This document shows, piece by piece, positions 19,369 through 42,579 of a stretch of 64,000 nucleotides of DNA (position 1 is the stretch's first letter; every line of letters begins with the position of its first letter). This DNA is from Chloroflexota bacterium. GTDB lineage: Bacteria; Chloroflexota; Dehalococcoidia; Lucifugimonadales; Lucifugimonadaceae. The notes under the pieces are model-generated. The model saw nothing but the letters and a program-made list of their open reading frames with translations. It had not been told where the DNA came from and did no database searches. The translations under genes and the position numbers were made by a program. The DNA lies in contig JAJCYY010000013.1 in the NCBI GenBank assembly GCA_029262735.1, positions 4,108-68,107 of the forward strand, given 5' to 3'.

Positions 19369-19442
19369 CTAGTCGTCTCCACGAATGACAGATCTGGATT
19401 TTTTTCCAATCGCCATTTACTCGCTAAACTCAGCAACCCGAC

Positions 19443-20612: not shown

Positions 20613-20629
20613 TGGTTGAATGGTCAGAG

Positions 20630-22255: not shown

Positions 22256-22300
22256 GGGGTGCGGAATCCACACACCTGTTAAGACACATGCTCCGAAGAG
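22256..22300 (-). repeat. Degenerate tRNA-Leu 3' fragment (oldest att remnant)
   Basis: A 19-nt core, CTGTTAAGACACATGCTCC, is identical to the tRNA-Leu at 42494..42579 and to the fragment at 26157. The flanking T-arm and acceptor parts are decayed. Confidence 0.65.
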
Positions 22301-26156: not shown

Positions 26157-26212
26157 TGGTGGGGAAGGTGGGATTCGAACCCACACGTCTGTTAAGACAC
26201 ATGCTCCTAAGG
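26157..26212 (-). repeat. tRNA-Leu 3' fragment (att remnant)
   Basis: TGGTGGGGAAGGTGGGATTCGAACCCACACGTCTGTTAAGACACATGCTCCTAAGG. This runs from the CCA end to the anticodon loop of tRNA-Leu, with a compensated T-stem variant. Confidence 0.85.
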
Positions 26213-26335
26213 TATTTTCAACTGAGTGCTAGGCGTCCAGAACGACAATCCCAAGCGAAACAGCAATAATTATGTGGCCTAACTTCGGAGCGAAAATCGG
26301 CGGAGAGACAGCGCAGCCTGCTGGTGATACGCCCG

Positions 26336-30021: not shown

Positions 30022-30075
30022 TGGTGGGGAAGGTGGGATTCGAACCCACACGGATTGCTCCACATGCTCCTAAGG
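30022..30075 (-). repeat. tRNA-Leu 3' fragment (att remnant)
   Basis: TGGTGGGGAAGGTGGGATTCGAACCCACACGGATTGCTCCACATGCTCCTAAGG. The acceptor, T-arm and anticodon arm match tRNA-Leu; the variable arm differs. Confidence 0.85.
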
Positions 30076-30180
30076 GATGAAGAGGTTGTTCACAGACATA
30101 CCACAACGTCCTTCCAAGTGCGCGGCGAATGGCAACAGGTCCACAAACGACCACCTGCGTCCAAGAGTGTCGCTCGTTGC

Positions 30181-30200
30181 TACTGTCAGATTGACTGTCT
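30181..30200 (+). repeat. Bipartite motif copy (degenerate): ACTGTCAG-ATTG-ACTGTCTG
   Basis: 13/16 match to ACTGTCAA-N4-ACTGTCAA. It lies 106 nt inside the distal end of island C. Confidence 0.45.
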
Positions 30201-30671
30201 GGTTTGCATCGAACCGTCCATGGAATCAGCACACGAGGGCCAAACACACGCGTCTTCGGGTTGACCTTGTATCTTCTTCGCTAACGTCGCCTGGATGGTG
30301 GCGTCGATGTGACCTTCTCCCCGAGATTCGCGCCGAATTAGGTGATAATTTTCAGGGAAGATTCTGAACCTAAGAATGGGAGATCATGTCGTGAAGAGAT
30401 CTCAGGTTACAAACGATCAGCCGTTCTTCTGGCGGATGTCCCGTACCGCTCCTGTCAGGATTGCTGTCATGTGGTTGCCGAAAACCATGAACGACAATTG
30501 TTACTCCAGTTGGCCCGGCTTGTGATGGAAGTTTTGGGACCATGAGCAGCGGCCGACGGCACATGCTTACCTGATATGAGGTGGACTTCGCGCTGGTTCC
30601 CTGAAGCAGCGATTTCGAATCCTTGTGTTTTCAGGTAATGAATACTGGGCCATGTATTTTTAGGAAACTCA

Positions 30672-30974
30672 TCACCCTCGCTGTATCGGACTCGCATTTA
30701 CTTTTTGCTCATCAATGATGATCTTTGCGGCTGATCCCCACAGGTAACCACCGAGTGCTCCAAACGGAATGCCAGCCACGAAGAGTCCCAGTCCGGCGCC
30801 AATACGAATGCCCATCTCGCCCCAGCCAACTCCGCCGCCCACATCGACGTCGTAATCGAGTGCGAACAGGAGGGCCATGCCGGCGAGGAAACCGGCGATG
30901 GCCACGATCCAGGCAATGACCGAAAGAATGCGGACGAACAGAAACGTCGGCCAGAGAACCAGGTAGCGGATCAT
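30672..30974 (-). CDS. Small Gly-rich integral membrane protein (3 predicted TM)
   Basis: 100 aa. Starts 6 nt after the flotillin-like stop, so it is probably co-transcribed. Confidence 0.6.
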   Translation of the reverse strand: MIRYLVLWPTFLFVRILSVIAWIVAIAGFLAGMALLFALDYDVDVGGGVGWGEMGIRIGAGLGLFVAGIPFGALGGYLWGSAAKIIIDEQKVNASPIQRG

Positions 30975-30980
30975 TACTCA

Positions 30981-33020
30981 CTAACCCTTTTCATCGATTT
31001 CCGCGTCACCGTCGGTTACAGCAACAACTTCATCACCGGGGATCTGATTTGGGACAGCTACACCTGGTTCTGCAGGGCTAGCTTCGGTGACTTCAGGATT
31101 CGAGCCTGGCTCCGCCTGAGGTCCATCTTCGTTCGCTATGTCAGTGATCTCGGATACACCTGATGCGTTCACTGACGGCCCAAGCGCTGTCGCCAACCAG
31201 GCGTTGAACAAACCGTTCCCGTCGCCGCCCCCGGTCACAGAAATTTCTGGGGTGATCTTCACGTTGCCCCTTGCGACCTCCTCCAGCACCTTCAAGACGG
31301 CCAACCGCTCCGAGCCGATCACGCCTGCCTGCGCCGAGAACGCCTCGGCAGTTGCAAGGCCAACCTGCTTCACCGCCTGCGCATCACCATCAGCACGGGT
31401 GCTGGTGGAATCACGGACACCTTCAGCCTCCCTCCGGGCCGCCTCCGCCCTGCTACCAGCAATCTCTACCGACAGCTTCGCCTCTACGACCTGTGTCTGC
31501 TGGTCGGCCCGCGCCCGTTGCTCCTGGACACCGATGCGCTCCGATTCGGCGAGCGCTTCCTGCTGATACTGAGCCTGCTGCTGGGTCGCGATTTCCTTCC
31601 TCGTCTGCGTGTCCAGCAAAGACTGGTCGACCGCGATGTATGCGATCAGTAGGTTCTGTGCTTCCACGAAGTAGTGAAGAAACTCTTCGCGAGCCCTTGC
31701 CAGCGCCTGCTGCTGCAACTCAGACCTGCCCTGTACAAAAGCGATAGCCTTCTCTTCACCTGCCCTATTCCGGAATGACGAGTCGATCAGTGGGTGAACG
31801 ATCTGCTCGATCAAGTTCTCAACCGAACCAAAACGAGCGATGACGAATGGTGCGTATTCCGGCCGGATCCGAATGATCATCCGGACATCCACGTCGAGGT
31901 GGAAACCGTCCATCGAAGTCACACGCAGCTGGTTGAACTTGAAGAACTCAGCGGCTCGGCCTTCGGTGCCCGGCTCGAATTCGATCGGCACCGGTGAAGG
32001 TAGGTCCATCCTCACGTGAGGACCTGAAGCCCAGTCGATCGTCACTGCACTGGTTGGAACCAGAAACGGGTTGTAGGCAATCGGGTTCAAGTTGTACGTT
32101 CCGGGTGCCACAGGATCACGGAGGATCCCGCGCCTTTCACGGTCGGTTATCAGAAGCCCTTCAATTCCCTCGTGAATCGGCTGGCGTAGGTCCTCAGTGC
32201 TTCCAGGAATACGCGGCGTTTCGATGTTGTCATCGAGCTCCTTTCCTACGTTCGATCTGAGTACTGCAACGTACCCGGGCGGCACATCGGCAACCGGGTG
32301 CGTCTGGATCTCGAACAGCAGCGGATTGATGTAGTAGCTACCGGGCTGAAGCGTGTCCAACTGCGGACCCCGATAACCCCCACCCTCTATGAACGACTGT
32401 CCATCCTGAAAGAACCGGTACTGACGAACGCGCGTGCCCTCGTCCGAAGCAGCATCCACAGGTTTAGGCGCCACGATGTATCCGGGTGCAAGCGCCATAC
32501 CGTCTAGCGCTATGGCGACTCCCACCTGCCCCGCTTCGATCTTCGTCGCACGCGCAGTTCGAATCCTGAACAGCTGCGTGTTTATCCGGTAGACGCCCGG
32601 GCGAATGATCTCGACCTGCGGGCCTTTTTTGCCTCCGCTCTGAAGGAAGGCGCGACCATCCTGGAACGAGTCACAGTCGACTGCGTCACCCAGCAATCTC
32701 CCGGCGGGAAGCGCTTCGCCGTCGATCGATTCGACGATACCAACCTCGTCAGGGTTGATCACCGTCACCGGAACGCTTTCAAACTTCCATGTCAGCGGAG
32801 ATCGCCAGTACAGCCCCGGCTTCAATACTGAAGCGAGAATGCCCACTTCCTGGTTCCGGGCGATTATGTGTCCCTGGGGCAGCTCTTTGCCGCCCATCTT
32901 CCGGGTCAGTATTCCGACCTGGTCGTCCCGAACCAACCTGACACCCGTCGCGACAAACGAAGCGAGCGAAAAGAACGCGATGCCGGACACAATTGCCAGG
33001 CCAACTATTTCGATAGCCAT
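30981..33020 (-). CDS. SPFH/Band-7 flotillin-like protein (YqiK-like)
   Basis: 679 aa. N-terminal TM anchor. Threefold internal repeat (..G.V.......G..L..G......PG.Y.IN...F.I). An SPFH core, then a long A/E/Q-rich coiled-coil flotillin-type tail. Confidence 0.75.
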   Translation of the reverse strand: MAIEIVGLAIVSGIAFFSLASFVATGVRLVRDDQVGILTRKMGGKELPQGHIIARNQEVGILASVLKPGLYWRSPLTWKFESVPVTVINPDEVGIVESIDGEALPAGRLLGDAVDCDSFQDGRAFLQSGGKKGPQVEIIRPGVYRINTQLFRIRTARATKIEAGQVGVAIALDGMALAPGYIVAPKPVDAASDEGTRVRQYRFFQDGQSFIEGGGYRGPQLDTLQPGSYYINPLLFEIQTHPVADVPPGYVAVLRSNVGKELDDNIETPRIPGSTEDLRQPIHEGIEGLLITDRERRGILRDPVAPGTYNLNPIAYNPFLVPTSAVTIDWASGPHVRMDLPSPVPIEFEPGTEGRAAEFFKFNQLRVTSMDGFHLDVDVRMIIRIRPEYAPFVIARFGSVENLIEQIVHPLIDSSFRNRAGEEKAIAFVQGRSELQQQALARAREEFLHYFVEAQNLLIAYIAVDQSLLDTQTRKEIATQQQAQYQQEALAESERIGVQEQRARADQQTQVVEAKLSVEIAGSRAEAARREAEGVRDSTSTRADGDAQAVKQVGLATAEAFSAQAGVIGSERLAVLKVLEEVARGNVKITPEISVTGGGDGNGLFNAWLATALGPSVNASGVSEITDIANEDGPQAEPGSNPEVTEASPAEPGVAVPNQIPGDEVVAVTDGDAEIDEKG

Positions 33021-33089
33021 CTTTCTTAAACCTCTTCACCACAATCAAAGTTGCAGCGGAGCGTCCGCTGTGTTGTCGAGCGATCCATC

Positions 33090-33437
33090 TCAGGTGCTAC
33101 TTCCGAGCTGCCACATCCGGGTACCGACAGCGAAAACCAGAACCGTCGGCACGAACAACGTGATGCCGAATGCCAACTGGAATGCGTAACTGGACCGAAG
33201 CTCTCGGAATCCGATAGCGCGGGAAATTGCCTCTGCGGCATGGAGCAACACCCACGACGTGATCCACATGACCGATGCAAGTGCCAGGACTGGCACTGCC
33301 ATGCAACGCGCTGTCGCCCTGGCAGGCCGCGAAATCAGCGATCTAACCGAAGAGGCCAACGTCGTTCCGGTTGATATGCGTGAAACGACCTCGACCAGTG
33401 TTGAACTTGATGCCTCAATTGCTGCACGGGACTGCAT
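33090..33437 (-). CDS. Hypothetical small membrane protein upstream of the flotillin-like gene
   Basis: 115-aa ORF with two hydrophobic helices in the C-terminal 70 aa. Start codon uncertain (internal Met at MAVPVLAL...). Confidence 0.4.
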   Translation of the reverse strand: MQSRAAIEASSSTLVEVVSRISTGTTLASSVRSLISRPARATARCMAVPVLALASVMWITSWVLLHAAEAISRAIGFRELRSSYAFQLAFGITLFVPTVLVFAVGTRMWQLGSST

Positions 33438-33496
33438 TGGTTTCTCCTTTAGCGGGCTGGTACTCGGTCATCGAGCACGACCTCCTGCGGACACAA

Positions 33497-33523
33497 CCCT
33501 GTGCCCCCTGTGCCCCCTTTGCC
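33497..33523 (+). repeat. Three tandem 9-mers: CCCTGTGCC CCCTGTGCC CCCTTTGCC
   Basis: Read directly in the divergent intergenic region between the flotillin operon and the STAND gene. Confidence 0.5.
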
Positions 33524-33684
33524 CTTTGAGAAACACACTAGCCACGGCCTAGTCCCATCTGTAGCTCGCCAGTCCCAGGAGCGTCCCAGAGTTCAATCCC
33601 GCAATCCCACGGAGTCGCGTCCGAGTCCTACAACAGGTGCCGGAGAATCCGCCCGTAAACTCATAGGCCTATAATCCCCGCCAG

Positions 33685-36600
33685 ATGACAGACCTGAATC
33701 AATCTGGATTCGTGACCAACGCTGCCGGTGCGCAGGAAAACGTTGAGCACGATGAAATCGAGTCCCAGCCTGCGAGAACAGATCCTCTGGCAAACCAGTT
33801 GCGGAGCGCGCTGGATGCTCTTCATGACATCAAGGAACTAGAACGGCATCCCCTCGCGTTCCGCCTGGCCGGTAAGTCCGAGAGCACGCCGGAGCTCCGT
33901 GCCCGTCGACTGCAAAGGTGGCTCGTAGACGCCATCAATAAGCTACGACCTGAGAATCCGGGCAGGGCACCCGATTCCCAGGAGAGCCGGTGGCATACGC
34001 TGCTGAACGCGCGGTACATCGAGGGTCTTGAGCCGGAGGTTGTGTGGAGGCGGATCGGGCACGGCCGATCAAGCTTCTTTCGACACGTAAGTAGTGGAAT
34101 TGATGAATTGGCCCGGCAGTTTCGAAACGAGACGTCCGGTGGACCCGACGCCATTCCTCCCCTGATCTCCGGCGGCTACGAATCAGAATTCGTTGGCCGA
34201 GAGCAGGAGTTCTCGGTTCTCAAGGCCCTCTACAACGAGGTCGCTTCAGGAGCCGGCGGCCGGGTCGCAATGATCACCGGTGAGGAAGGGATTGGGAAGA
34301 CCCGACTCGCTCGGGAGCTTGGCAAGTTTGTTGAGAAAGAGGGAGGCTTATTCCTCGAGGGCCGATGGGCCGCGTGGGAGGGCGCTGCTCCGTACGGCGC
34401 TCTTGCCGACAGCCTGAGACAGGGCATTCGTCAGCTTGATCCTGAGGAAGTCGATTTTGCTGTAGGTCCTTACAGGCGTGAACTGACCCGTATCCTGCCA
34501 GAACTGGCTGAAAAGCCAGAGAGCCGAACCGATGAGACGGCACAAGGTGTCGAGGGTGAACAGCTGCGCTTCTACGACGGCGTGTTCTGGCTCGTCCAGA
34601 ACCTGTCGCAGAAACAGCCGCTCGTCCTGCTTCTCGACGACCTCCACCTCGCCCCACAGATGAGTCTGCAGCTACATATCGCGCGACGCCTGCCGGAGCT
34701 GCGACTGCTCATTGTTTACGGATTCAGGGAGAACGAGTTAGCCGAGAAGACTGCCCTTTTTACCGGACGCAACGAGATGGTGCGGAACAGGCTAGTAACC
34801 GACATAGCGTTAATGCCAATCACTGAATCCCAGGTAGAGCAAATCATCGCAAACGCCTTCGAACCAGACATCGCAGCTCATCTGCGAAACCGGATTTTCG
34901 AAATTAATCGAGGCAACCCATTCTTTGTCGAAGAGGTCCTCCGATATCTGCTGCAGAACCAAATGATCCGCAGGTCCGACAGAGGATGGGAAGTCCAAGA
35001 CATCACGCATCTTGGCATTCCCGAAACAGTCAAGCGGCTTGTCCAGGATAGGGTCGACAGGCTGGGCGAAGAAGCAACAAGCGTCCTGCGGCAAGCGTCT
35101 GTGCTGGGAAGAGATTTCAGATTCGATGCTCTGACTGTGATGACCCAATTGCCCGAAGACGAGCTTGTCGAAGTAATTGAAAGGGCCGTCGCTGGCGGGG
35201 TGCTGGTCGACAGTACGCGCGCAGCTGCAGCCGAGGAGTACAGGTTCCGTGATGACCATGTCCGGGAAGCTCTGTACGACGGCATCACTTCACCCAGGCG
35301 GAGGCGATACCATCGGGCGGCTGGCGGCGCACTAGAAGAGACCGACCCGAGCAGACTCCAGGAGCTTGCATTTCACTTCACCACGGGCAGTGATCTGGAA
35401 CGTGGTGCGAAGTACTCATTCGAAGCGGCTGAACAAGCCAACGCAGCGTTCTCGTGGAACAGGGCCATACCACTATACCGTGATGCTCTCGACCTCTGGG
35501 ACGAGCTTGGCGATCACCGGGATGAACGAGCTTTGGCAGCGGAACGCCTCGGAAACGCCTGCTACAAATCAGGCATTCAAGCGCAGCGAGCTACAGGCTA
35601 CTTCCAGCAGTCCCTCGATCTCTACACGGAGCTTGGAAACGAATCCAAAGCGGCGACCATTCTCTCGGAACTCGGCCGCGAGCACATGCACAGCGGCAAC
35701 CTGGCTGCCCAGGACTTGAACTTGGCACTAAAGCACTTCACCGATGCAGAGGCGATCATCTCCCGAGAACCGGAGAGCATCAGGCACGGCATGGTGTACT
35801 GCGGACTTGCGATGGTGCACCTGGACAGGATGGAATTTCGTGACGCGCTCGAATGGGCGCACAGGGCGTTCGAAGTTGGCAAACGCATCAACGCTCCGGC
35901 TGTTATTGCGAACGCCAGCGTCCCTCTCGGCGCTGCGACGGCGATGGAGAGCGTGTCAGACGCTGCGGACATCCTGGAGCGTGGTTGGCGCACTGCCATC
36001 GAATCGGACCTCGGCTTTCAATCTGATCTATCCCGCGCTTATGCAGCGCGCGTCCTAGGAGCGATGCCGAAAGATCCGCGCACCGGCATCGAGTGGGTAA
36101 ACCGAGGTCCGCGATATGAGACTACCTATTCACTGTTCGATATTCCCGCTCACCTGGTTGCGTTCCATGCGCTGGCAGGTGAGTTCGATGAGGCAGAGAA
36201 ACACTTGGACGAGCTTCAGCGTAGGCTGGCAGCGCTCGGTCAGCCCACATTCGGGCCATGGCCGGATGAACTTGGCCTACTGTGGATCCGCACCGGACAG
36301 CTGGAACATGCCGAGGTTCAGCTTGGCAAAGCGCTGGATTGGGCGACAAATAGCGGGAACAGGCTGGTTGAAGCCGGGACGGCAAGGCGTCTTGGCGAGG
36401 TACTGACACACCTGGGTCATTACGAGGTGGCCGAAGAGAAATTCCTGCATTCGCTCAAGCTGAACCGGGCCGGCGGGAATCGGATAGGTGAGTTGGCACT
36501 TTTACCACAACTCGCGCAGCTGTACTGCGAAACCGGACGATTCAACGATGCGGAGAACACTTTGGTGCGTGCCCGCAAAGTTGAATCCGAAATCGATGCG

Positions 36601-36894
36601 CCCGGAGCGCTAAAAGGTGATCTCTTTCTCGCCAATGGAATTGTGAACGCAGGCTTCCGGCGAATAGAAGAGTCCGACAATGCATTCAGGAGCGCCCTGG
36701 ATATTTACCGAGAGTTCGATCGCCCATGGGACGAGGCTCGTGCCTACTATGCACTGGGACTGGTGACAAGAGCGATTTCAGTCAACGAGTCTGATGTCAG
36801 CCGCTCTCGGGAACTAGTAGGGAAAGCGGATTCGCTGTTCTCGTCCATCGGTGCGACATGGTGGGCGGAACGTTGTCGTCAAGGTCATGCATGA
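33685..36894 (+). CDS. STAND-type AAA ATPase with N-terminal sigma70-r4/LuxR-like HTH and C-terminal TPR array
   Basis: 1069 aa. HTH-like LNARYIEGLEPEVVWRRIGHGRSSFFRHVSSGIDELA. Walker A ITGEEGIGKTRLAREL and Walker B LVLLLDDLHLA. The roughly 450-aa C-terminal part has TPR-like repeats (A..Y...L.LY.ELG). TATAAT at 33670-33675 ends 9 nt before the ATG. Confidence 0.75.
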   Translation: MTDLNQSGFVTNAAGAQENVEHDEIESQPARTDPLANQLRSALDALHDIKELERHPLAFRLAGKSESTPELRARRLQRWLVDAINKLRPENPGRAPDSQESRWHTLLNARYIEGLEPEVVWRRIGHGRSSFFRHVSSGIDELARQFRNETSGGPDAIPPLISGGYESEFVGREQEFSVLKALYNEVASGAGGRVAMITGEEGIGKTRLARELGKFVEKEGGLFLEGRWAAWEGAAPYGALADSLRQGIRQLDPEEVDFAVGPYRRELTRILPELAEKPESRTDETAQGVEGEQLRFYDGVFWLVQNLSQKQPLVLLLDDLHLAPQMSLQLHIARRLPELRLLIVYGFRENELAEKTALFTGRNEMVRNRLVTDIALMPITESQVEQIIANAFEPDIAAHLRNRIFEINRGNPFFVEEVLRYLLQNQMIRRSDRGWEVQDITHLGIPETVKRLVQDRVDRLGEEATSVLRQASVLGRDFRFDALTVMTQLPEDELVEVIERAVAGGVLVDSTRAAAAEEYRFRDDHVREALYDGITSPRRRRYHRAAGGALEETDPSRLQELAFHFTTGSDLERGAKYSFEAAEQANAAFSWNRAIPLYRDALDLWDELGDHRDERALAAERLGNACYKSGIQAQRATGYFQQSLDLYTELGNESKAATILSELGREHMHSGNLAAQDLNLALKHFTDAEAIISREPESIRHGMVYCGLAMVHLDRMEFRDALEWAHRAFEVGKRINAPAVIANASVPLGAATAMESVSDAADILERGWRTAIESDLGFQSDLSRAYAARVLGAMPKDPRTGIEWVNRGPRYETTYSLFDIPAHLVAFHALAGEFDEAEKHLDELQRRLAALGQPTFGPWPDELGLLWIRTGQLEHAEVQLGKALDWATNSGNRLVEAGTARRLGEVLTHLGHYEVAEEKFLHSLKLNRAGGNRIGELALLPQLAQLYCETGRFNDAENTLVRARKVESEIDAPGALKGDLFLANGIVNAGFRRIEESDNAFRSALDIYREFDRPWDEARAYYALGLVTRAISVNESDVSRSRELVGKADSLFSSIGATWWAERCRQGHA

Positions 36895-36947
36895 AGCTCG
36901 AAATTTCATCTCCAATTCTGACGATCACTGGAGCTAGCGATCGTGAA

Positions 36948-36967
36948 ACTGTCAAACATACTGTCAA
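36948..36967 (+). repeat. Bipartite motif copy: ACTGTCAA-ACAT-ACTGTCAA
   Basis: Perfect 16/16 half-sites. It lies 54 nt after the STAND stop and about 270 nt upstream of the MFS gene. Confidence 0.7.
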
Positions 36968-37234
36968 AATAGCGTGATGGAGGGGCAACTCATACCAGCT
37001 AATGAGTTTCGCAATTGAGAAATGACGTTTCATATGTGTGCTGGAAATTAGCGTCACATGCCCCGGCACTATGAAGAGCCCACTCAGACGCGGATCTCTC
37101 ATCTTCTTATAATCTCTCTCGTCGAGAGATTGGACTGAATCAAACCAAGATATCGTGCCATCAATCGGACACGATCGATGAAAAGAAGCCTGGTCATCGG
37201 GACCGTCGCCTGGTGTTCATCAAGGAGCCGGTGA

Positions 37235-38554
37235 GTGGTCAAGACCGTTGCCGGAAGTTCTGATCAGGACACCACATCGACTGCAACCGCGCCATCTGTC
37301 ACTCACCCGTCTGGCCGCGCGGGCTTGTTCCACTCGTTCAGCTATCGCAGCTTCAGGATGCAGTGGATCGCCGATTCCCTGATGAGTTGGTCGAATGAGA
37401 TGGAGAACCTGATCCTGGGCTGGTTCGTCCTGGTGCAGACCGACTCCCCGTTCTTACTCGGCCTGTTCGGTGCACTGAAATTTCTCGGCACGCTAGTAGC
37501 ACCAATCTATGGCGTCATTGCAGACCGAATGGACCGACGCCACATGCTCATCGGCCTGCGTTCGATATTCGCCGTCCTTGCGTTGACTGTCACGACGCTG
37601 GCGCTGACCGGCACACTCGAAGTGTGGCACGTGTTCGTCATCGCCACCCTGACCGGCATGATTCGCGTGGCAGATAACGTAGCCCGGCAGGCGCTCATCG
37701 CCGACATTGTTCCCCGCGAATCCCTGCTGAACGCGTATGGCCTCACTCGCACCACACAGGACTCAGCGAAGATAGCGGGTTCGTTGATTGGCGCTGGACT
37801 ATTCGCCCAATTCGGTCTTGGCCTCGCCTATACAGGCGTAACCGTTCTATATGCCAGTTCCGTGGTGTTCATCGCTGCGGTGAGCATCGTGCGTCGGGCT
37901 GTTCCTTCGCAGCGTGATCCAGTCTTCCGTACGCTCAAGTCGGGAGTCTCATATATGCGCGATTCTCCGACCATCATGGCGGTGATGTTCCTGGCATTCC
38001 TGGTGAACCTCACTGCCTTCCCGCTCTCGAACGGCCTGATGCCAGTTGTAGCACGCGACCTGTTCAACACGGACGAGAACGGGCTGGCGAGGCTGCTGGC
38101 GGCAGTTGCCTCCGGGGCGCTGACGGGGTCTATCGCGATGGCTGCGTTGTCACGCATCGCGCGGCCTGACCGCGTGATGCTGTTTGGGGTAGTGGCGTGG
38201 CATCTGTTCCTGTTGTTGTTCGCCCAGTTTGACACCGCGGGGCCGGCGTTCCCCGTGCTGGCAACGGTGGGATTCGCCAGTTCAGTTTCAATGATCTCGA
38301 TGACCGTACTCCTCATGACCACAGTACAACGAGAGTTTCGCGGTCGCGTAATGGGCGTTCGGATGCTGGCGGTCTATGGGCTACCGATGGGACTGCTGAT
38401 AGGCGGTGCGCTTGCTGAAGTGTTCGGAATCCAGGCGACGATCACGATCTACGGCATTGTCGGCCTGGTGCTCACGGCGCTGTCAGTGGTCGTCTGGCCG
38501 CAGTTATTGCGAAGCGGAGCAGTGATAGGGAGCGATGCTCCGCCCCGCGAGTAA
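37235..38554 (+). CDS. MFS transporter
   Basis: 439 aa with about 12 predicted TM helices. MFS loop motif GVIADRMDRRHML between TM2 and TM3. Confidence 0.8.
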   Translation: MVKTVAGSSDQDTTSTATAPSVTHPSGRAGLFHSFSYRSFRMQWIADSLMSWSNEMENLILGWFVLVQTDSPFLLGLFGALKFLGTLVAPIYGVIADRMDRRHMLIGLRSIFAVLALTVTTLALTGTLEVWHVFVIATLTGMIRVADNVARQALIADIVPRESLLNAYGLTRTTQDSAKIAGSLIGAGLFAQFGLGLAYTGVTVLYASSVVFIAAVSIVRRAVPSQRDPVFRTLKSGVSYMRDSPTIMAVMFLAFLVNLTAFPLSNGLMPVVARDLFNTDENGLARLLAAVASGALTGSIAMAALSRIARPDRVMLFGVVAWHLFLLLFAQFDTAGPAFPVLATVGFASSVSMISMTVLLMTTVQREFRGRVMGVRMLAVYGLPMGLLIGGALAEVFGIQATITIYGIVGLVLTALSVVVWPQLLRSGAVIGSDAPPRE

Positions 38555-38630
38555 GGCCGTCATTGCCCGAACAGTTCCCGACCCACGATGGATTCTGCAA
38601 TCGCGGCATCGGTACCACCTTGCCCGCCCA

Positions 38631-38660
38631 TTCGCCTTCGCCTTCGCCTTCGCCTTCGCC
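38631..38660. repeat. Hexanucleotide microsatellite (TTCGCC)x5
   Basis: Read directly. Intergenic, between the MFS and KAP gene ends. Confidence 0.9.
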
Positions 38661-38678
38661 TGTCAAAGTTACTGTGAA
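38659..38678 (+). repeat. Bipartite motif copy (near-perfect): CCTGTCAA-AGTT-ACTGTGAA
   Basis: 14/16 match, immediately after the microsatellite. Confidence 0.5.
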
Positions 38679-38875
38679 ACGCGATCGAGGCCACTATTAT
38701 CCGTAGCATTGCATCTCGAACCGGTGTCTCATGGAGCTCCGAGCACATGCCTCTCGGCCATGACGGCCCTTTGATTCAGCGCATCTTCTGCCCACTACCA
38801 TTACGCTCCGTGGTGACCAGCCGACGGTCGGCACACGACCGATAGTCTGCGAGAGATCGCGAACTTTCGTGTGAC

Positions 38876-41659
38876 CTAGCTTTCGTCCGTTGATACTTCC
38901 GGTTCTTCCAACGGTACCTTCGGATTCGTACCGCTCGTCGGCGACGCCGGGGCGTTGAGAATGGAACTCTCGAACTGTTGTTTCGCCACCTCAGCCGACT
39001 TTTCTCCAAATATGACCACCTTCTGAAGATTCGCCGCCAACACAGGATTGACCAGATCCCGGGAGTGAGAGGCCATATAAGCAGCCACGCGGAGTCTCAG
39101 CAGCAACCTCCTCAACTCTTCTTTTCCATCCCGCAAGATGATTCCATCCACCCGCTTGGGGACAGAAGTGTTGGTCGATTGGAATGTCAACAAGTCACCG
39201 CTTTCGGAAGTCTCCTCGTCCGCGTAAGTTCTGGGGTTGGCCACAATTTGCTCAGAATCTGCGATAGTAACTTTTTCTCTGGAAAGGCCTTTCAATTTTG
39301 AATCCCAAAGTTCGGCTGGTGGATTGGCGAATCCGTCAATAAAGTACTTGGGATCCCAGTTGCTCTCGTTTCCCAGGTAGCTGAAAATCCTGTTCTTATC
39401 GTCGATATCCACATCTGGTGACCCGAGCACCTGCTGCAAGAAGGCATGCGACTCTTGCCTCAATACCAGTGGGATTACCATTGGCAGGCATCCATCATCC
39501 AGAGGTTGTTTGTCATCAGTAGATTTCAGTGCGATGTCGGCGATTCGCAGTATCTCCCGAGGAACACCGCCGGCAAGCACACAAATGCCGTGTCCGACGG
39601 CTTTTGGCAGCACGTTCCGCTTCGGCAGATTTGACCTCAGCCGATCGGAACCGGGATCTGTTCGATCACTCTGTGCTGGACTATACGATTTGCTAGATGC
39701 CGAACCTCTACTTCCTGTTGACGTTGGCTCAGGTTTGATCAACTTCGAAACTACGTCATTGACGCCCCGCCTCAGTGCATCTAACAACTGTGGAAAAGTC
39801 GCTGGCGGTTGTCGTTTAGATTCGGGCACCGGTTTGTGTAGTGATACAGCGATTCGCTCATCCAACAACTTCCACGCCTCTGCAGGTCGTAGGGGACCGA
39901 ACGCAAAGACCTGGTTGAACGAGCTACTAAATTCGTCGCGTCCCCGGAAGGATCCCATTCGGTACGCGCTGGCTGCCTCATCCGAGATGGACATCAGGAA
40001 GTGAACATTTTTGGCCGCAAAGATTCCCTTGATGTCCCTCAATAGCTTTCGAACGTCCTCTTCATCGTCGATTTTATCGAGCTCATCGATGCCGATCACG
40101 ACATTGCCAAGCATCGCTTCCTGCGCCCGTTCGGCAAGATCCGCGAACTCTTTCACGAGCGAAGTTACCGTATACGGTCTTTCCACGAGCTCCTTGCTGC
40201 GGGAAAACTTCACTAGCCCCGTTAACCATTTGCCGCCCTCGGCCCCGAACTCTGAACTGCGTCGTTCGCTGCTGGAGTAGCGAACCCACTCTTTTGCACG
40301 CTCAGCGCGCCTTTTCACGACACGGAGTTGCTGGTTTCTCTGTTTCTGGTTTGTGAAATTCTTGGCAGGAATTATCAACGAAAGAAACGGGATGAATGCC
40401 AGCGCGCCTCCAGAGACTGCCGCCAATATCGAAAAGGAGTTGTAGAGAGTCATTGGCGGAGCCTGATCGCCCTCGCGGACCAGAAAGGACCAATCATGGG
40501 ACGCGGTGTACCGAATCGCGACTACCAATCCGACCCAAACTACCACTGAAAATGATGTCACCCACAACGAATCTACATTGTCGAAATTAGTCCTGATTGA
40601 GGCGCCCCGCCCTTCATATCTTGAACTCCGGGCTAAACGTCTGAGATATGACCACGTCCTTGATGGCGTATTCCTGAGGAGGGAAGGAAAACCGTACTTT
40701 AGCAACCAGTTTTCTGATCTTGATGTGTCGGATTCTGATTGTTTAGCTTGCGGCGTGCCGGAGTCTGGTAGTTCAGCTTGTGCCCTGTCGGACCCTGACT
40801 GTTCAGAAGGCGAATTGTCGGACTTCTCGCTCGCCTCTGTACCCGTGGTGACCCATTTCCATGCGAGCTGCGAAGCTACTAAGCCTGACAAAAGTGTCGC
40901 AGCCACCAGGATCAGGAATTTTAGTATCTTGCTGATGTCTGCTTGCTGGTTCGAGAACTCCCAGCTCAGTGCCGCACCCATTGCGATCAACAACAGGATG
41001 GTGACTCCGAGCAACGCATCAAAACCTACCTGTGAATACCTGATGACTGCGAACCGGTTTGGCTGCCCGTCAAATTCGGATGCGTCCAGATCCGTGGCCC
41101 CTAGTGCTACGCGCTGCCTGTTTGACCGGCGTCCCATGTACTTAATTGCTTTGCCGGTCTTTGCAACCACCGCGTCAGCCAGCGTGTATATGAGGGTTTC
41201 CAGGAATGGCAGAGCCTTGTATTCGCTGGGAACCGGAGCCCAGATTCCGACTCCGTAGTCCTCTTTGCCGGATTCAGAATGATTTCGTTGCTGGTCATCA
41301 TCGCGGGATTTCTCGTTGCTGTTTGGCCCGTCCTTTCTATTATCGTTGTTCGAATCCGACAAGTTCACTGGTTGCTGGGCATTCGCCAGATCAACGGCCT
41401 GCTGTATGAACCAGGTCTTTCCGGCTCCTCTTGGTCCAGAAACTCCGAACGAGCCTCCTTCGATTTCCAGCAACGCATCCGGGCTCTGTGATCTGTCCCA
41501 TTTCTCGAAGCGATCAGAACGAAACGAGGTGAAGACATCCGCGTTTTTGATCTTCTTCCACGTCCGGTTGTTTTCCTGCCCGCCGTCTTCCGTGGTTTTT
41601 TCGTTATCAGGGGATGTGTTTTCCACCTCGGGACCCGTTGCACCATTAGGAATTGACAT
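38876..41659 (-). CDS. KAP-family P-loop NTPase with transmembrane helices inserted in the NTPase domain
   Basis: 927 aa. Walker A VSGPRGAGKTWF at about aa 75 and Walker B VVIGIDELDKIDDEED at about aa 520. Four hydrophobic helices lie between them (e.g. LLGVTILLLIAMGAALSW, FLILVAATLLSGLVASQLAW, SFSVVVWVGLVVAI, ILAAVSGGALAFIPFLSLII). Confidence 0.7.
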   Translation of the reverse strand: MSIPNGATGPEVENTSPDNEKTTEDGGQENNRTWKKIKNADVFTSFRSDRFEKWDRSQSPDALLEIEGGSFGVSGPRGAGKTWFIQQAVDLANAQQPVNLSDSNNDNRKDGPNSNEKSRDDDQQRNHSESGKEDYGVGIWAPVPSEYKALPFLETLIYTLADAVVAKTGKAIKYMGRRSNRQRVALGATDLDASEFDGQPNRFAVIRYSQVGFDALLGVTILLLIAMGAALSWEFSNQQADISKILKFLILVAATLLSGLVASQLAWKWVTTGTEASEKSDNSPSEQSGSDRAQAELPDSGTPQAKQSESDTSRSENWLLKYGFPSLLRNTPSRTWSYLRRLARSSRYEGRGASIRTNFDNVDSLWVTSFSVVVWVGLVVAIRYTASHDWSFLVREGDQAPPMTLYNSFSILAAVSGGALAFIPFLSLIIPAKNFTNQKQRNQQLRVVKRRAERAKEWVRYSSSERRSSEFGAEGGKWLTGLVKFSRSKELVERPYTVTSLVKEFADLAERAQEAMLGNVVIGIDELDKIDDEEDVRKLLRDIKGIFAAKNVHFLMSISDEAASAYRMGSFRGRDEFSSSFNQVFAFGPLRPAEAWKLLDERIAVSLHKPVPESKRQPPATFPQLLDALRRGVNDVVSKLIKPEPTSTGSRGSASSKSYSPAQSDRTDPGSDRLRSNLPKRNVLPKAVGHGICVLAGGVPREILRIADIALKSTDDKQPLDDGCLPMVIPLVLRQESHAFLQQVLGSPDVDIDDKNRIFSYLGNESNWDPKYFIDGFANPPAELWDSKLKGLSREKVTIADSEQIVANPRTYADEETSESGDLLTFQSTNTSVPKRVDGIILRDGKEELRRLLLRLRVAAYMASHSRDLVNPVLAANLQKVVIFGEKSAEVAKQQFESSILNAPASPTSGTNPKVPLEEPEVSTDES

Positions 41660-42182
41660 CGGCTGTGCCTTCTTTTTACATACGGCCCTCTAGCGCGAGG
41701 ACAACGCTGAGTTCACTGTGCGATCATATTCCAGGTTGGATCCTACGGATTGGAGAGAGTGACCGCCCGCTAGACGAATCAGAATCATTCCCATCGAATC
41801 CGCTGAGCGGATGGAACGGCATGATCGTAGTGAAACCGTCGATCCTAGTGGATTGTGTACAAACTTATCGTTGTTCACAACACATTGGCTATCCTAAAAG
41901 ACTCTCATCAGGAAGTCGAAACAACGATTCAGATCATGACTCTCCCATTGACCCACCGAGGTCGAGACCCTGGAACAAGGCCACAAGATTCTGGGAGGTC
42001 AGAGTCTGCTGCCGTTCTACGATTATCCCGTTCGTTGCAGGATCCCAACTTCCGAGTCGAACTCCGACCCTCGAGACACAATTGCCGATCAACTTTGTCT
42101 GTGTCGGTCAATGAATTCAACGTGCTCCTGGGAAGCGCCGAGAGCGGAACCCCTATGAATCGTGCCAATACCGATAACGTTG

Positions 42183-42202
42183 ACTGTCAACACTACTGTC
42201 AA
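42183..42202 (+). repeat. Bipartite motif copy: ACTGTCAA-CACT-ACTGTCAA
   Basis: Perfect 16/16, in the non-coding arm between the KAP gene and tRNA-Leu. Confidence 0.7.
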
Positions 42203-42424
42203 AAAACCTCATTTCCCGTGGACGGGCGATTGTTGCATCTCGATATCAGCTTCTGAAGGCTGCTTAGCACATGCTTCCCGATCTTGACAGCGATTGAAGT
42301 GGGGTTCTGGTCTGAACTTTCATCTCCGACAGGCCTAACAGTCCTTGAAATTGACCTGATCGGTGGAACTGAGGTAATACGAACTCCGAATCGAGATGCG
42401 CCCGTATTCATAGCCACAGGTGAA

Positions 42425-42444
42425 ACTGTCAAAACTACTGTCAA
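42425..42444 (+). repeat. Bipartite motif copy: ACTGTCAA-AACT-ACTGTCAA
   Basis: Perfect 16/16, 50 nt from the 3' end of the tRNA-Leu gene. Confidence 0.7.
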
Positions 42445-42493
42445 TCCGTGTTTCGGACGACCTCATGAATTCCTCGAAACAGCTAAGTTGAAC

Positions 42494-42579
42494 TGGTGGG
42501 GAAGGGGGGATTCGAACCCCCACGTCTGTTAAGACACATGCTCCTAAGGCATGCGCGTCTGCCATTTCGCCACTTCCCC
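42494..42579 (-). tRNA. tRNA-Leu, anticodon UAG, type II (long variable arm), CCA encoded
   Basis: The reverse complement folds by eye. Acceptor GGGGAAG/CTTCCCC. Anticodon arm CATGC-CTTAGGA-GCATG. Variable arm TGTCTTAACAGACGT. T-arm GGGGG-TTCGAAT-CCCCC. Ends in ACCA. Confidence 0.9.

What the first reader, a model, noticed from the sequence alone, without database searches (positions are those of the whole stretch)
30181..42444. Bipartite direct-repeat motif ACTGTCAA-N4-ACTGTCAA present five times, only in intergenic parts of island C
Three perfect copies lie at 36948-36967, 42183-42202 and 42425-42444. Two degenerate copies lie at 38659-38678 (14/16) and 30181-30200 (13/16). All have the same orientation and the same 12-nt half-site phasing, and all are non-coding. 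Three perfect 16-of-16 matches with fixed spacing cannot be chance in 64 kb. Copies sit 50 nt and 292 nt from the tRNA (proximal arm) and 106 nt from the distal att remnant. They also flank both the MFS gene and the KAP NTPase gene. I see two readings. (a) They are arm-type binding sites for a now-missing or trans-acting integrase or recombination directionality factor. (b) They are operators for an island-encoded regulator. The STAND protein with an N-terminal HTH (33685..36894) is the obvious candidate.
Basis: partly seen in the sequence, partly recalled or inferred. Interest (0 to 1): 0.6.

Follow-up and report, generated by a model that had tools for sequence, protein, structure and literature searches.

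The report
Orphan integrase arm sites in island
The repeated ACTGTCAA-N4-ACTGTCAA motif is most likely the docking ('arm') site of a lambda-type integrase. It marks recombination sites in a 20-kb, integrase-less stack of genomic islands inserted in a tRNA-Leu gene, a known kind of feature seen here in an uncharacterised Chloroflexota-like lineage.

Summary
There are three perfect and two degenerate copies, all on the + strand, all intergenic, and all inside the island next to tRNA-Leu(TAG) (0.43 expected by chance). I found a sixth degenerate copy at 30451.

Each copy is followed, 43, 65 or 87-90 nt downstream, by CACATGC-N7-nnATG. This has the same form as the anticodon stem-loop of the tRNA (CATGC-TCCTAAG-GCATG), a classic tyrosine-recombinase core. 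So each motif belongs to an att-like module made of an arm site plus a core.

Three tRNA 3' remnants (30022, 26157, 22256) show a tandem stack of three islands. No integrase is present anywhere in the 64 kb.

A relative (84% identity in a neighbouring protein) carries a perfect copy at the same 50-nt offset from its tRNA-Leu. Its island differs and encodes a 385-aa integrase and an HTH_17 excisionase-like protein. A homologue of that integrase models with a three-strand-plus-helix N-terminal domain, as in lambda Int. More distant relatives with empty tRNA-Leu sites lack the motif.

The same motif lies beside tRNA 3' ends or integrase genes in several other phyla.

Reading (a), arm-type recombination sites, is supported. 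Reading (b), a STAND operator, is not. This is a new member of a known kind. The internal modules at gene boundaries remain unexplained.

The parts
42425..42444 (+). Motif copy M1 (perfect), 50 nt from the tRNA-Leu 3' end. Arm site of the tRNA-proximal att junction (unit U1).
   Evidence: The same offset and orientation occur in relative L121.
42494..42579 (-). tRNA-Leu(TAG), the integration target. Its anticodon stem-loop 42535-42553 (CACATGC TCCTAAG GCATG on the + strand) is the inferred core C'-O-C.
   Evidence: Rfam tRNA 60.5 bits. All three remnants end at the anticodon loop.
42183..42202 (+). Motif copy M2 (perfect), unit U2.
42268..42286 (+). Core-like site of U2: CACATGC TTCCCGA TCTTG, 65 nt after M2.
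38659..38678 (+). Motif copy M3 (14/16), unit U3. It abuts a (GCCTTC)n microsatellite.
38744..38762 (+). Core-like site of U3: CACATGC CTCTCGG CCATG, 65 nt after M3. U2 and U3 also share the 11-mer TTGCATCTCGA at nearly the same offset (38709-38719 and 42233-42243).
36948..36967 (+). Motif copy M4 (perfect), unit U4.
37055..37073 (+). Core-like site of U4: CACATGC CCCGGCA CTATG(AAGAG), 87 nt after M4. It closely matches the L121 distal site CACATGC CCCGGTC TTATGAAC.
30451..30470 (+). New degenerate motif copy (12/16) CCTGTCAGgattGCTGTCAT, unit U5.
   Evidence: It was found by searching upstream of CACATGC at 30560.
30560..30578 (+). Core-like site of U5: CACATGC TTACCTG ATATG, 89 nt after the degenerate copy.
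30182..30201 (+). Motif copy M5 (13/16) in the distal arm of island C, 103 nt inside remnant R1. It is followed 43 nt later by CACACGC GTCTTCG GGTTG (30245-30263).
   Evidence: L121 has a similar distal copy ACTGTCAGaacaACTGTGCT.
30022..30079 (+). Remnant R1 of the tRNA-Leu 3' half, forming the distal boundary of island C.
   Evidence: local score 37; null maximum 14.
26157..26215 (+). Remnant R2 of the tRNA-Leu 3' half, forming the boundary between islands A and B.
   Evidence: score 53.
22256..22298 (+). Remnant R3, an older and more decayed tRNA-Leu 3' half. It is the outer boundary of the about 20-kb island stack.
   Evidence: score 26.
38876..41659 (-). Cargo: KAP-family P-loop NTPase (927 aa), lying between U2 and U3.
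37235..38554 (+). Cargo: MFS_3 transporter (439 aa), lying between U4 and U3. In relatives it sits elsewhere without the motif.
33685..36894 (+). Cargo: STAND-type AAA_16 + TPR protein (1069 aa). No HTH was detected by Pfam.
30981..33020 (-). Cargo: SPFH/Band 7 protein (679 aa), with a 100-aa ORF downstream at 30672-30974.

Best explanation
ACTGTCAA-N4-ACTGTCAA (on the tRNA strand, TTGACAGT-N4-TTGACAGT; extended unit T-TTGACAGT-A at 12-nt phasing) is the arm-type recognition element of the att sites of a family of integrative elements that target tRNA-Leu.

Inferred mechanism: two N-terminal arm-binding domains of a lambda/Tn916-type (heterobivalent) tyrosine integrase dock on the two half-sites. 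The catalytic body of the same protein binds the core, which is the anticodon stem-loop CATGC-TCCTAAG-GCATG. The intervening 43-90 nt is bent so that arm and core are bridged.

The window holds a stack of three islands built by repeated integration into this tRNA. It has lost, or never had, its own integrase. The sites are therefore orphans. They could still be used by a related integrase made elsewhere in the genome (a CIME-like, cis- or trans-mobilisable state).

Shown:
- The motif, its pairing with core-like sites, and the tRNA remnants.
- The absence of an integrase from the window.
- The element-borne origin of the motif.
- Its co-occurrence with an arm-domain integrase in a homologous island.

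Inferred:
- That the integrase N-domain, rather than the excisionase, is the binder.
- That the sites are still active.
For: (1) Statistics and strand bias.

(2) Pairing with a core. CACATGC occurs 11 times on the + strand and once on the - strand. Seven of the + strand sites are not tRNA-derived, and four of these have a motif copy (4 or fewer mismatches) 65-89 nt upstream. The background rate for such a copy is about 1.2% of positions. The gaps fall into classes 43 / 65, 65, 66 / 87, 89, 90, 90, with steps of about two helical turns. The sequence between motif and core is not conserved, which is the pattern expected of protein-binding sites.

(3) The core is an inverted repeat around a 7-nt loop. 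All three tRNA remnants end there, which marks it as the crossover site.

(4) In relative L121, homology to the window covers exactly the motif, the 49-nt spacer and the tRNA (83% identity) and stops at the far edge of the motif. The half-sites are 16/16 identical, while all four N4 spacer positions differ.

(5) The L121 island has different cargo. It also has a 385-aa integrase whose N-terminus reads GEGSIYRRKDGRW...GK.KYRFAKTK, and an HTH_17 protein.

(6) An AlphaFold model of a 46%-identical homologue (pLDDT 91) has strand-strand-strand-helix at residues 13-57, ahead of the core-binding and catalytic domains. Foldseek aligns it to Tn1549 Int and to full-length lambda Int.

(7) Empty tRNA-Leu(TAG) sites in L123 and L124 have no motif.

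(8) Among 119 genome hits to the motif, about 10 lie 50-240 nt downstream of a tRNA 3' end. Seven have a homologue of the L121 integrase within a few kb; four of these are close by (L052 directly upstream of int, L080 26 nt and L036 about 240 nt downstream of int, L051 an int fragment at the far end of a tRNA-Thr island), while in L017, L047 and L056 the motif is 1.3-4.7 kb from int. In addition, two copies flank a P4-type int in L084, and L075 has a homologue of that int.

(9) In viral contigs the motif is 48-49 nt from tRNA-Met and tRNA-Asn. In L187 it flanks the tRNA-like core on both sides, directly upstream of int. In L232 it lies about 11-30 nt downstream of int.

(10) Flanking bases outside the searched 8-mer are also conserved: T before and A after.
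Against: - No integrase, integrase fragment or excisionase homologue is present in the 64-kb window (tblastn), so function here cannot be tied to a local protein.
- The N-terminal domain gives only sub-threshold Pfam hits: AP2 in 7 of 19 members (best E 5e-4), and Integrase_DNA and Arm-DNA-bind_4 in one member each.
- The internal units U2-U5 are not explained by simple integration into the tRNA. They carry no tRNA remnant beyond the heptamer, and their 7-nt overlaps all differ. Yet their motifs are better preserved than those next to the true remnants R1-R3.
- The motif occurs next to three different integrase N-domain families (Int121-like, Arm-DNA-bind_3, Arm-DNA-bind_5). This is odd for one arm specificity and could point to a shared accessory protein instead.
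- No control motif was scanned, so the cross-phylum enrichment is judged only against rough expectations.
Confidence: 0.62

Rival explanations
1. The motif is a recombination-arm site, but its binder is the recombination directionality factor: a small HTH_17/Xis-type excisionase that oligomerises on direct repeats and bends the arm. The integrase N-domain is not the binder.
For: L121 and the island of the closest integrase homologue (L128) each encode an HTH_17 protein near int. Tandem direct repeats between the core and the outer arm are typical of Xis-type sites (general knowledge of lambda, L5 and Tn916). The motif occurs next to three unrelated integrase N-domain families. A shared accessory protein would explain that more easily.
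Against: In L187 the motif lies on both arms, and in L052 and L187 it abuts the int start, which is more like Int arm sites. No HTH_17 gene was seen next to most other motif loci, though contigs are short. Xis sites usually lie on one arm only.
Confidence: 0.2
2. The internal modules are active, not relics. Island C would be an array of integrase-less gene cassettes, each bounded by a complete att-like module, which a trans-acting integrase can excise, insert or shuffle.
For: Motif-plus-core modules sit at every gene-block boundary (KAP between U2 and U3; MFS between U3 and U4; STAND plus SPFH between U4 and U5). The motifs in U2 and U4 are perfect although the flanking sequence is unrelated, which suggests selection. 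U2 and U3 share the motif, an 11-mer and a similar core, and their three overlap differences are all transitions. The MFS gene sits in four other contexts in relatives.
Against: The 7-nt overlaps differ between all modules, so present-day recombination between them should be inefficient. MFS homologues elsewhere are never flanked by the motif. The L121 island has no internal modules. No circular or alternative junctions were examined.
Confidence: 0.1
3. The motif is an operator for an island-encoded regulator, the STAND protein with a putative N-terminal HTH, or for a host factor such as a PhoB-like response regulator that recognises CTGTCA direct repeats.
For: The direct-repeat half-sites resemble sites for tandemly binding winged-helix regulators. 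The core CTGTCA resembles the E. coli Pho box (from memory). By eye, STAND residues about 105-150 look like a sigma-70 region-4-type HTH.
Against: The motif is kept at the same offset in L121, whose island has no STAND gene. Pfam finds nothing in STAND residues 1-172. The copies lie downstream of convergent genes or next to a tRNA 3' end, and none has a -10 box at promoter spacing. Phasing is 12 nt, not the 11 nt of Pho boxes. The pairing with the core-like heptamer has no place in an operator model.
Confidence: 0.05
4. The motif is a generic dispersed repeat (REP- or MITE-like) or a chance cluster with no function.
For: Only 64 kb of the source genome was seen. The public genome scan returned many single hits in unrelated taxa, some of them coding 12-nt tandem repeats.
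Against: Chance is excluded. About 128 kb from eight related loci holds a single copy, at the tRNA-Leu of L121. The flanks of the copies share no extended homology, unlike MITEs. The motif is a direct repeat, not a palindrome.
Confidence: 0.03

Closest known systems
Arm-type (P/P') sites of lambda-family heterobivalent tyrosine integrases (lambda, L5, Tn916, P2/HP1)
   Same: Short direct repeats lie in the att arms, tens of bp from a core made of an inverted repeat around a 7-bp overlap. They are carried by the element and absent from the empty target. The cognate integrase in the homologous island has an extra three-strand-plus-helix N-terminal domain, and its model aligns to full-length lambda Int.
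   Different: The sequence TTGACAGT is not one I know as a described arm consensus (from memory; the literature string search was uninformative). No integrase is present here. Extra motif-plus-core modules sit inside the island. The same 8-mer appears beside three different integrase N-domain families in several phyla.
CIMEs and tandem accretion of integrative elements at one att site (Streptococcus ICESt1/3, Streptomyces; reviewed in PMC5704250)
   Same: The island stack lies at one tRNA gene and is bounded by repeated att remnants. It lacks integration genes but keeps att sites, so a related incoming element could mobilise it.
   Different: No conjugation or helper element was seen. Mobility is untested. 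The lineage is Chloroflexota-like rather than Firmicutes or Actinobacteria. The internal modules are not simple attL/attR copies.
Tycheposon island arrays at tRNA genes in marine bacteria (bioRxiv 10.1101/2020.12.28.424599)
   Same: Successive integrations at a tRNA push older elements inward and leave partial tRNAs and degraded elements behind. The cargo consists of accessory genes.
   Different: I did not compare the integrase with tycheposon recombinases. No replication module or element-specific hallmark genes were found, and no arm motif was compared.
Xis/RDF binding sites (lambda X1-X2, L5 gp36 sites)
   Same: Tandem direct repeats lie in one arm between the core and the distal arm. An HTH_17 excisionase-like gene is present in the homologous island.
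   Different: In some loci (L187, L084) the motif occurs on both sides of the core or of int. The binder has not been identified.
Pho box (PhoB operator, CTGTCAT-N4-CTGTCAT)
   Same: A direct repeat with a CTGTCA core and an A/T-rich 4-5 nt spacer.
   Different: The phasing is 12 nt rather than 11. There is no promoter context. The motif is linked to att sites and integrases rather than to phosphate genes.

Membership tests
Arm-type sites of a heterobivalent tyrosine-integrase att site | Short repeated sites in the arms, separate from and unlike the core, within about 150-300 bp of it | tested here: met
   Copies lie 50 and 292 nt from the tRNA 3' end. Gaps to the core or core-like heptamer are 43-90 nt.
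Arm-type sites of a heterobivalent tyrosine-integrase att site | A core with inverted integrase-binding half-sites around a 6-8 bp overlap where crossover occurs | tested here: met
   CATGC-TCCTAAG-GCATG is the anticodon stem-loop, and all three tRNA remnants end at this loop. Internal units have CACATGC-N7-nnATG, so the second half-site is only partly kept.
Arm-type sites of a heterobivalent tyrosine-integrase att site | A cognate integrase with an N-terminal arm-binding domain encoded by the element | tested here: not met
   No integrase or fragment is in the window (tblastn, all E > 0.3). The feature is met only in the homologous island L121: a 385-aa Int whose homologue models with a strand-strand-strand-helix N-domain, with Foldseek hits to full-length lambda Int. 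Pfam support for the N-domain is sub-threshold.
Arm-type sites of a heterobivalent tyrosine-integrase att site | Sites belong to the element and are absent from the unoccupied target | tested here: met
   Empty tRNA-Leu(TAG) sites in L123 and L124 lack the motif. L121 carries it with a different island.
Arm-type sites of a heterobivalent tyrosine-integrase att site | Sites on both arms of attP | tested here: inconclusive
   The distal arm has only degenerate copies (30182; L121 1013). In viral contig L187, perfect copies flank the tRNA-like core on both sides.
Arm-type sites of a heterobivalent tyrosine-integrase att site | Physical binding by the integrase N-domain, and a requirement for it in recombination | not testable with these tools
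   Needs EMSA or footprinting and a recombination assay.
CIME / tandem accretion array | Flanked by att sites produced by site-specific recombination at one target | tested here: met
   An intact tRNA plus remnants R1, R2 and R3 in direct orientation.
CIME / tandem accretion array | Lacks its own integration and transfer genes | tested here: met
   Pfam on all large island ORFs and tblastn with three integrases.
CIME / tandem accretion array | Mobilised in cis or trans by a related functional element | not testable with these tools
   The rest of the source genome was not available, and there are no excision data.
RDF (Xis) binding sites | Tandem direct repeats in one arm, bound by a small excisionase encoded by the element | tested here: inconclusive
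   An HTH_17 gene is present in L121 and L128 but none in the window. The binder is unknown.
Pho box / OmpR-family operator | Two 7-bp repeats at 11-bp phasing overlapping the -35 of a regulated promoter | tested here: not met
   The phasing is 12 nt in all window copies. No promoter-like site was found at any copy. One copy lies between convergent 3' ends.
REP/MITE-type dispersed repeat | Many copies dispersed across the genome, sharing extended or palindromic sequence | tested here: not met
   The motif is confined to the island in the 64-kb window. There is one copy in about 128 kb of relatives. The flanks are unrelated. The whole source genome was not scanned.
Integron attC cassette array | Imperfect inverted repeats that fold as single strands, with an adjacent intI and attI | tested here: not met
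   The motif is a direct repeat, no intI-like gene is present, and no inverted-repeat structure appears at the sites.

The most novel reading that the evidence does not exclude
Island C is not a graveyard of old junctions. It would be a working cassette array: gene blocks (KAP NTPase, MFS, STAND plus SPFH) each bounded by a complete lambda-type att module (bipartite arm site plus core). A heterobivalent integrase made elsewhere could insert, excise and reorder them, much as an integron does but on arm-plus-core sites. A linked possibility is that T-TTGACAGT-A is a very widely shared arm code, used across phyla by integrases with different N-domain families or by a common accessory protein.
Probability: 0.15. 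Interest if true: 0.7.

Novelty: new member of a known kind. Interest (0 to 1): 0.4.

Why it matters
The finding turns a bare repeat into a readable map. The motif plus the CACATGC heptamer mark every recombination junction in a 20-kb integrase-less island stack in a poorly studied, apparently marine Chloroflexota-like lineage. They also point to the integrase family (L121-type) that should act on it. That gives a concrete, testable pair of protein and DNA site.

It also gives a simple sequence signature (motif, then 43-90 nt, then an anticodon-stem heptamer) for finding such islands and their orphan remnants in metagenomes. If the internal modules prove active, or if the 8-mer really is shared by distinct integrase families across phyla, this would bear on how accessory-gene islands are assembled and moved without their own recombinase.

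Tried and rejected
It did not return the source genome, so the genome-wide distribution in the source remains untested.
- Exact-protein look-ups for the STAND and SMP-30 ORFs gave only a 3.7-kb contig or nothing.
- The metagenome scan for relatives of the L121 integrase gave three distant loci without the motif.
- The closest integrase homologue (P0122, contig L128) has no att site or tRNA on its contig.
- I tested the cassette idea by fetching four MFS homologues at 77-86% DNA identity. All lie in other contexts, with no motif and no nearby + strand heptamer.
- The last look-up (P0006) ended 263 nt short of the tRNA.
- A literature search for the motif string returned only primer and siRNA hits.
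- Rfam found nothing at the sites.
- The promoter scan found no -35/-10 pair at any copy, despite the TTGACA in the motif.
- PADLOC found no known defence system in the cargo.
- I considered U2-U5 as decayed tRNA junctions and rejected this. The older junctions R1-R3 still align to the tRNA (scores 26-53), whereas U2-U5 do not (scores 8-10).
- I considered the motif as ancestral host flank and rejected this because of the empty sites.
- The cluster look-up for the 100% MFS match gave no accession or name.

Full report
**1. Observation**

A search for ACTGTCAA-N4-ACTGTCAA with up to three mismatches returns six hits in the 64-kb window, all on the + strand.
- Perfect copies lie at 36948, 42183 and 42425.
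- A three-mismatch hit at 45427 sits inside a long ORF outside the island.

Dinucleotide-preserving shuffles give 0.43 hits on average and never six. The exact 8-mer occurs 8 times against 1.57 expected. The five island copies are all intergenic. ARAGORN finds one tRNA, tRNA-Leu(TAG), at 42494-42579 on the minus strand. The copies lie 50 and 292 nt beyond its 3' end.

**2. The locus**

The 3' half of the tRNA is repeated three times in direct orientation:
- R1 at 30022-30079
- R2 at 26157-26215
- R3, more decayed, at 22256-22298

Their local alignment scores to the tRNA are 37, 53 and 26, against a null maximum of 14. All three end at the anticodon loop. The region 22.3-42.5 kb is therefore a stack of three islands laid down by successive integrations into the anticodon loop of this tRNA.

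Gene content:
- Island C (30080-42493): an SPFH protein, a STAND-type AAA_16/TPR protein, an MFS transporter and a KAP NTPase.
- Island B: a radical-SAM protein, a ParB_N protein and a 539-aa unknown.

No integrase domain was found in any large ORF. tblastn with three integrases and an excisionase-like protein finds nothing in the window (all E > 0.1). Neighbouring host genes and their homologues place the organism in or near the Chloroflexota/Dehalococcoidia.

**3. Each motif copy is paired with a core-like site**

On the + strand the tRNA reads CACATGC-TCCTAAG-GCATG across its anticodon arm. This is a 5-bp inverted repeat around the 7-nt loop, the standard layout of a tyrosine-recombinase core.

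The heptamer CACATGC occurs 11 times on the + strand and once on the - strand.
- Four of the + strand sites are the tRNA and its remnants.
- Of the other seven, four are preceded by a motif copy with 4 or fewer mismatches: 42268, 38744, 37055 and 30560.
- The copy before 30560 is a previously unnoticed degenerate one, CCTGTCAGgattGCTGTCAT at 30451.
- Such a copy occurs in only about 1.2% of comparable 80-nt stretches.

The gaps from motif to heptamer are 65, 65, 87 and 89 nt, and 90 nt at the tRNA. The copy at 30182 is followed 43 nt later by CACACGC. The gaps therefore fall into three classes about two helical turns apart.

After the heptamer and seven variable bases, most sites read nnATGA. 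This is also what follows the true remnant R1 (GGATGAAGAG; compare CTATGAAGAG at 37055).

The sequence between motif and heptamer is not conserved, apart from an 11-mer shared by the 42183 and 38659 units. Conserved short blocks at set spacings, with free sequence between them, are what bound proteins leave behind. Descent from a common repeat would not give this pattern.

**4. The motif is carried by the element, and a homologous island has the integrase**

A relative was reached through the neighbouring SMP-30 protein (84% identity). It is syntenic to the right of the tRNA (locus L121). It has tRNA-Leu(TAG) with a perfect copy, ACTGTCAAtctgACTGTCAA, again 50 nt from the 3' end.

DNA homology with the window covers exactly the motif, the 49-nt spacer and the tRNA (83% identity) and stops at the outer edge of the motif. 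The 16 half-site bases are identical, while all four N4 spacer positions differ.

Beyond that point the L121 island is unrelated. It carries an SMC-like ATPase and a methyltransferase. At the far end it has an HTH_17 excisionase-like gene and an integrase ORF of 385 aa. Next to that end lies a degenerate copy, ACTGTCAGaacaACTGTGCT. It resembles the window's distal copy and is followed 66 nt later by CACATGC CCCGGTC TTATGAAC, close to the window's 37055 site.

Two more distant relatives (64-65% identity) have the same tRNA beside SMP-30 with an empty site. The upstream ABC-transporter gene ends 9-38 nt from the tRNA, and there is no motif. So the motif arrives with the islands and is not host flank.

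**5. The integrase is of the arm-binding kind**

The L121 integrase has about 75 residues ahead of its SAM-like core-binding domain. This N-terminus is conserved in hundreds of homologues (consensus KRANGEGSIY.RKDGRW...GKRK..YGKT).

Pfam gives only sub-threshold hits on these N-termini: AP2 in 7 of 19 members, and the Tn916 integrase DNA-binding domain and Arm-DNA-bind_4 once each.

An AlphaFold model of the closest full-length homologue (46% identity, mean pLDDT 91) shows three strands and a helix at residues 13-57, followed by the core-binding and catalytic domains. Foldseek aligns the model best to Tn1549 Int, whose crystal construct lacks the arm domain. It also aligns to full-length lambda Int over 354-371 columns. 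This supports, but does not prove, an arm-binding N-domain.

**6. The same motif elsewhere**

The genome-collection scan was cut at 119 loci, and most hits are singletons in unrelated taxa. Even so:
- About ten lie 50-240 nt downstream of a tRNA 3' end. Two of these are other Chloroflexota, both at tRNA-Leu genes (L088, L094).
- Seven have a homologue of the L121 integrase within a few kb.
  - L052: the motif is directly upstream of int, and that integrase is 35% identical to L121's, N-terminus included.
  - L080, a Ktedonobacteraceae MAG: the motif is 26 nt downstream of int.
  - L036: the motif is about 240 nt downstream of int.
  - L051: an int fragment lies at the far end of a small AbiE island whose tRNA-proximal end carries the motif.
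  - L017, L047 and L056: the motif lies 1.3-4.7 kb from int.
- In L084, two perfect copies flank a P4-type integrase gene. L075 has a homologue of that integrase.
- In viral contigs the motif lies 48-49 nt from tRNA-Met and tRNA-Asn. In L187 it sits on both sides of the tRNA-like core, directly before a Bacteroidota-type integrase. In L232 it lies about 11-30 nt downstream of an L121-type integrase.

Positions outside the searched 8-mer are also biased: T before and A after each half-site. That argues for a real shared recognition sequence rather than coincidence.

I ran no control motif, so the size of this enrichment is judged only against rough expectation.

**7. Alternatives**

*Operator for the STAND protein.* The motif keeps its place in L121 without any STAND gene. 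The window copies are not in operator positions, and none has a -10 box. Pfam sees no HTH in STAND residues 1-172, although a region-4-like stretch can be read by eye.

*Pho-box reading.* This fails on phasing (12 nt, not 11) and on context.

*Dispersed repeat.* About 128 kb from eight related loci contains one copy, at the L121 tRNA.

*Known RNA.* No Rfam family overlaps the sites.

*Excisionase versus integrase.* Whether the binder is the integrase N-domain or the HTH_17 excisionase cannot be settled by sequence. I favour the integrase, because in some loci the motif lies on both arms and abuts int. However, its appearance beside three different integrase N-domain families keeps the excisionase option open.

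**8. What remains unexplained**

The internal modules (42183, 38659, 36948, 30451) are not ordinary junction relics.
- They lack any tRNA remnant beyond the heptamer, whereas the older junctions R1-R3 keep theirs.
- Their motifs are better preserved than the barely recognisable ones beside R1-R3.
- Their 7-nt overlaps all differ.

The two modules flanking the KAP gene are mutually similar: same gap, a shared 11-mer, and overlaps that differ only by transitions. This looks like an old pair of junctions from recombination between two att-like sites. They may record element-into-element insertions, or they may be sites still under selection.

A test of cassette mobility through MFS homologues was negative. 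The gene lies in four other contexts in relatives and is never flanked by the motif.

**9. Comparison with known systems and verdict**

The motif behaves like the arm-type sites of lambda-family integrases. The island stack matches what the ICE/IME literature calls tandem accretion and CIMEs, meaning elements that kept att sites but lost their integration genes (PMC5704250). It also resembles the tRNA-anchored island arrays described for marine bacteria (10.1101/2020.12.28.424599).

Membership in 'arm-type sites' fails one defining test inside the window itself, because no cognate integrase is encoded there. That test is met in the homologous island.

I rate this a new member of a known kind. 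It is of moderate interest because of the neat motif-plus-core signature, the unexplained internal modules, and the apparent spread of one 8-mer across phyla.

Noticed in passing
window 22256-22298, 26157-26215, 30022-30079: Three direct remnants of the tRNA-Leu 3' half define a stack of three islands (about 20 kb) with no integrase. The two inner remnants share the same two substitutions relative to the live tRNA.
   Followed up: yes
window 38633-38660: A (GCCTTC)n hexamer microsatellite of about five units abuts the degenerate motif copy at 38659.
   Followed up: no
window 37198-38557; L249, L250, L251, L252: The MFS_3 transporter gene occurs in four different genomic contexts in relatives. 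In L250 it is 86% identical at the DNA level, while the DUF1800/DUF1501/NHL genes on the same contig are 75% identical. Homology always starts 23-37 nt upstream of the start codon. This may mean the gene moves often, or it may just reflect fast-diverging intergenic DNA.
   Followed up: partly
window 26336-29708: Island B looks like a three-gene operon on the minus strand: a 539-aa protein with no family hit, a ParB_N-domain protein (251 aa) and a radical-SAM protein (341 aa). PADLOC gave no defence-system match beyond a weak type II MTase hit on the ParB_N protein. This could be an uncharacterised system.
   Followed up: partly
window 29593-29612 and 42346-42365: A 20-nt direct repeat TGAAATTGACCTGATYGRTG (90% identity). 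One copy is in the gene-free stretch between units U2 and U1. The other is inside the 5' part of the 539-aa ORF of island B. Its meaning is unknown.
   Followed up: no
window 42268-42292: Just after the core-like heptamer of U2 the + strand reads TCTTGACAGCG. This is an inverted, near-perfect half-site (TTGACAGc) next to the core. It may be chance.
   Followed up: no
window 33685-34200: The STAND protein's first about 170 residues have no Pfam match even at E = 1. By eye, residues about 105-150 (RYIEGLEPEVVWRRIGHGRSSFFRHVSSGIDEL) look like a sigma-70 region-4-type helix-turn-helix.
   Followed up: partly
L071 5158-5357 (Bacillota MAG): Three bipartite copies of the same motif (spacers of 3, 4 and 5 nt) lie 54, 141 and 233 nt downstream of a tRNA-Met, next to a cytosine methylase island. 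This is a denser arm than in the window.
   Followed up: partly
L187 6103-6351 (viral contig) and L084 3005-4742 (Betaproteobacteria): In L187, perfect motif copies flank a tRNA-Asn-like core, directly upstream of a Bacteroidota-type integrase. In L084, perfect copies flank a P4-type integrase gene. The same 8-mer therefore accompanies at least three integrase N-domain families.
   Followed up: partly
L051 2254-4631 (Bryobacterales MAG) and L088 2466-3958 (Chloroflexota MAG): Very small tRNA-adjacent islands keep the motif at the tRNA-proximal end. One carries an AbiEi/AbiEii pair plus an integrase fragment. The other carries a truncated HTH_3-STAND gene. They look like decayed relatives of the window's arrangement.
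   Followed up: partly
window 18355-22015: DUF1501, DUF1800 and NHL-repeat genes, which as far as I recall are usually linked with Planctomycetota/Verrucomicrobiota, sit beside FtsZ in a genome whose closest named relatives are Dehalococcoidia/Chloroflexota MAGs.
   Followed up: no
window 45427-45446: A three-mismatch match to the motif (CCCGTCAAatacACCGTCAA) lies inside a 507-aa ORF outside the island. It is at the level expected by chance and has no core-like heptamer checked nearby.
   Followed up: no
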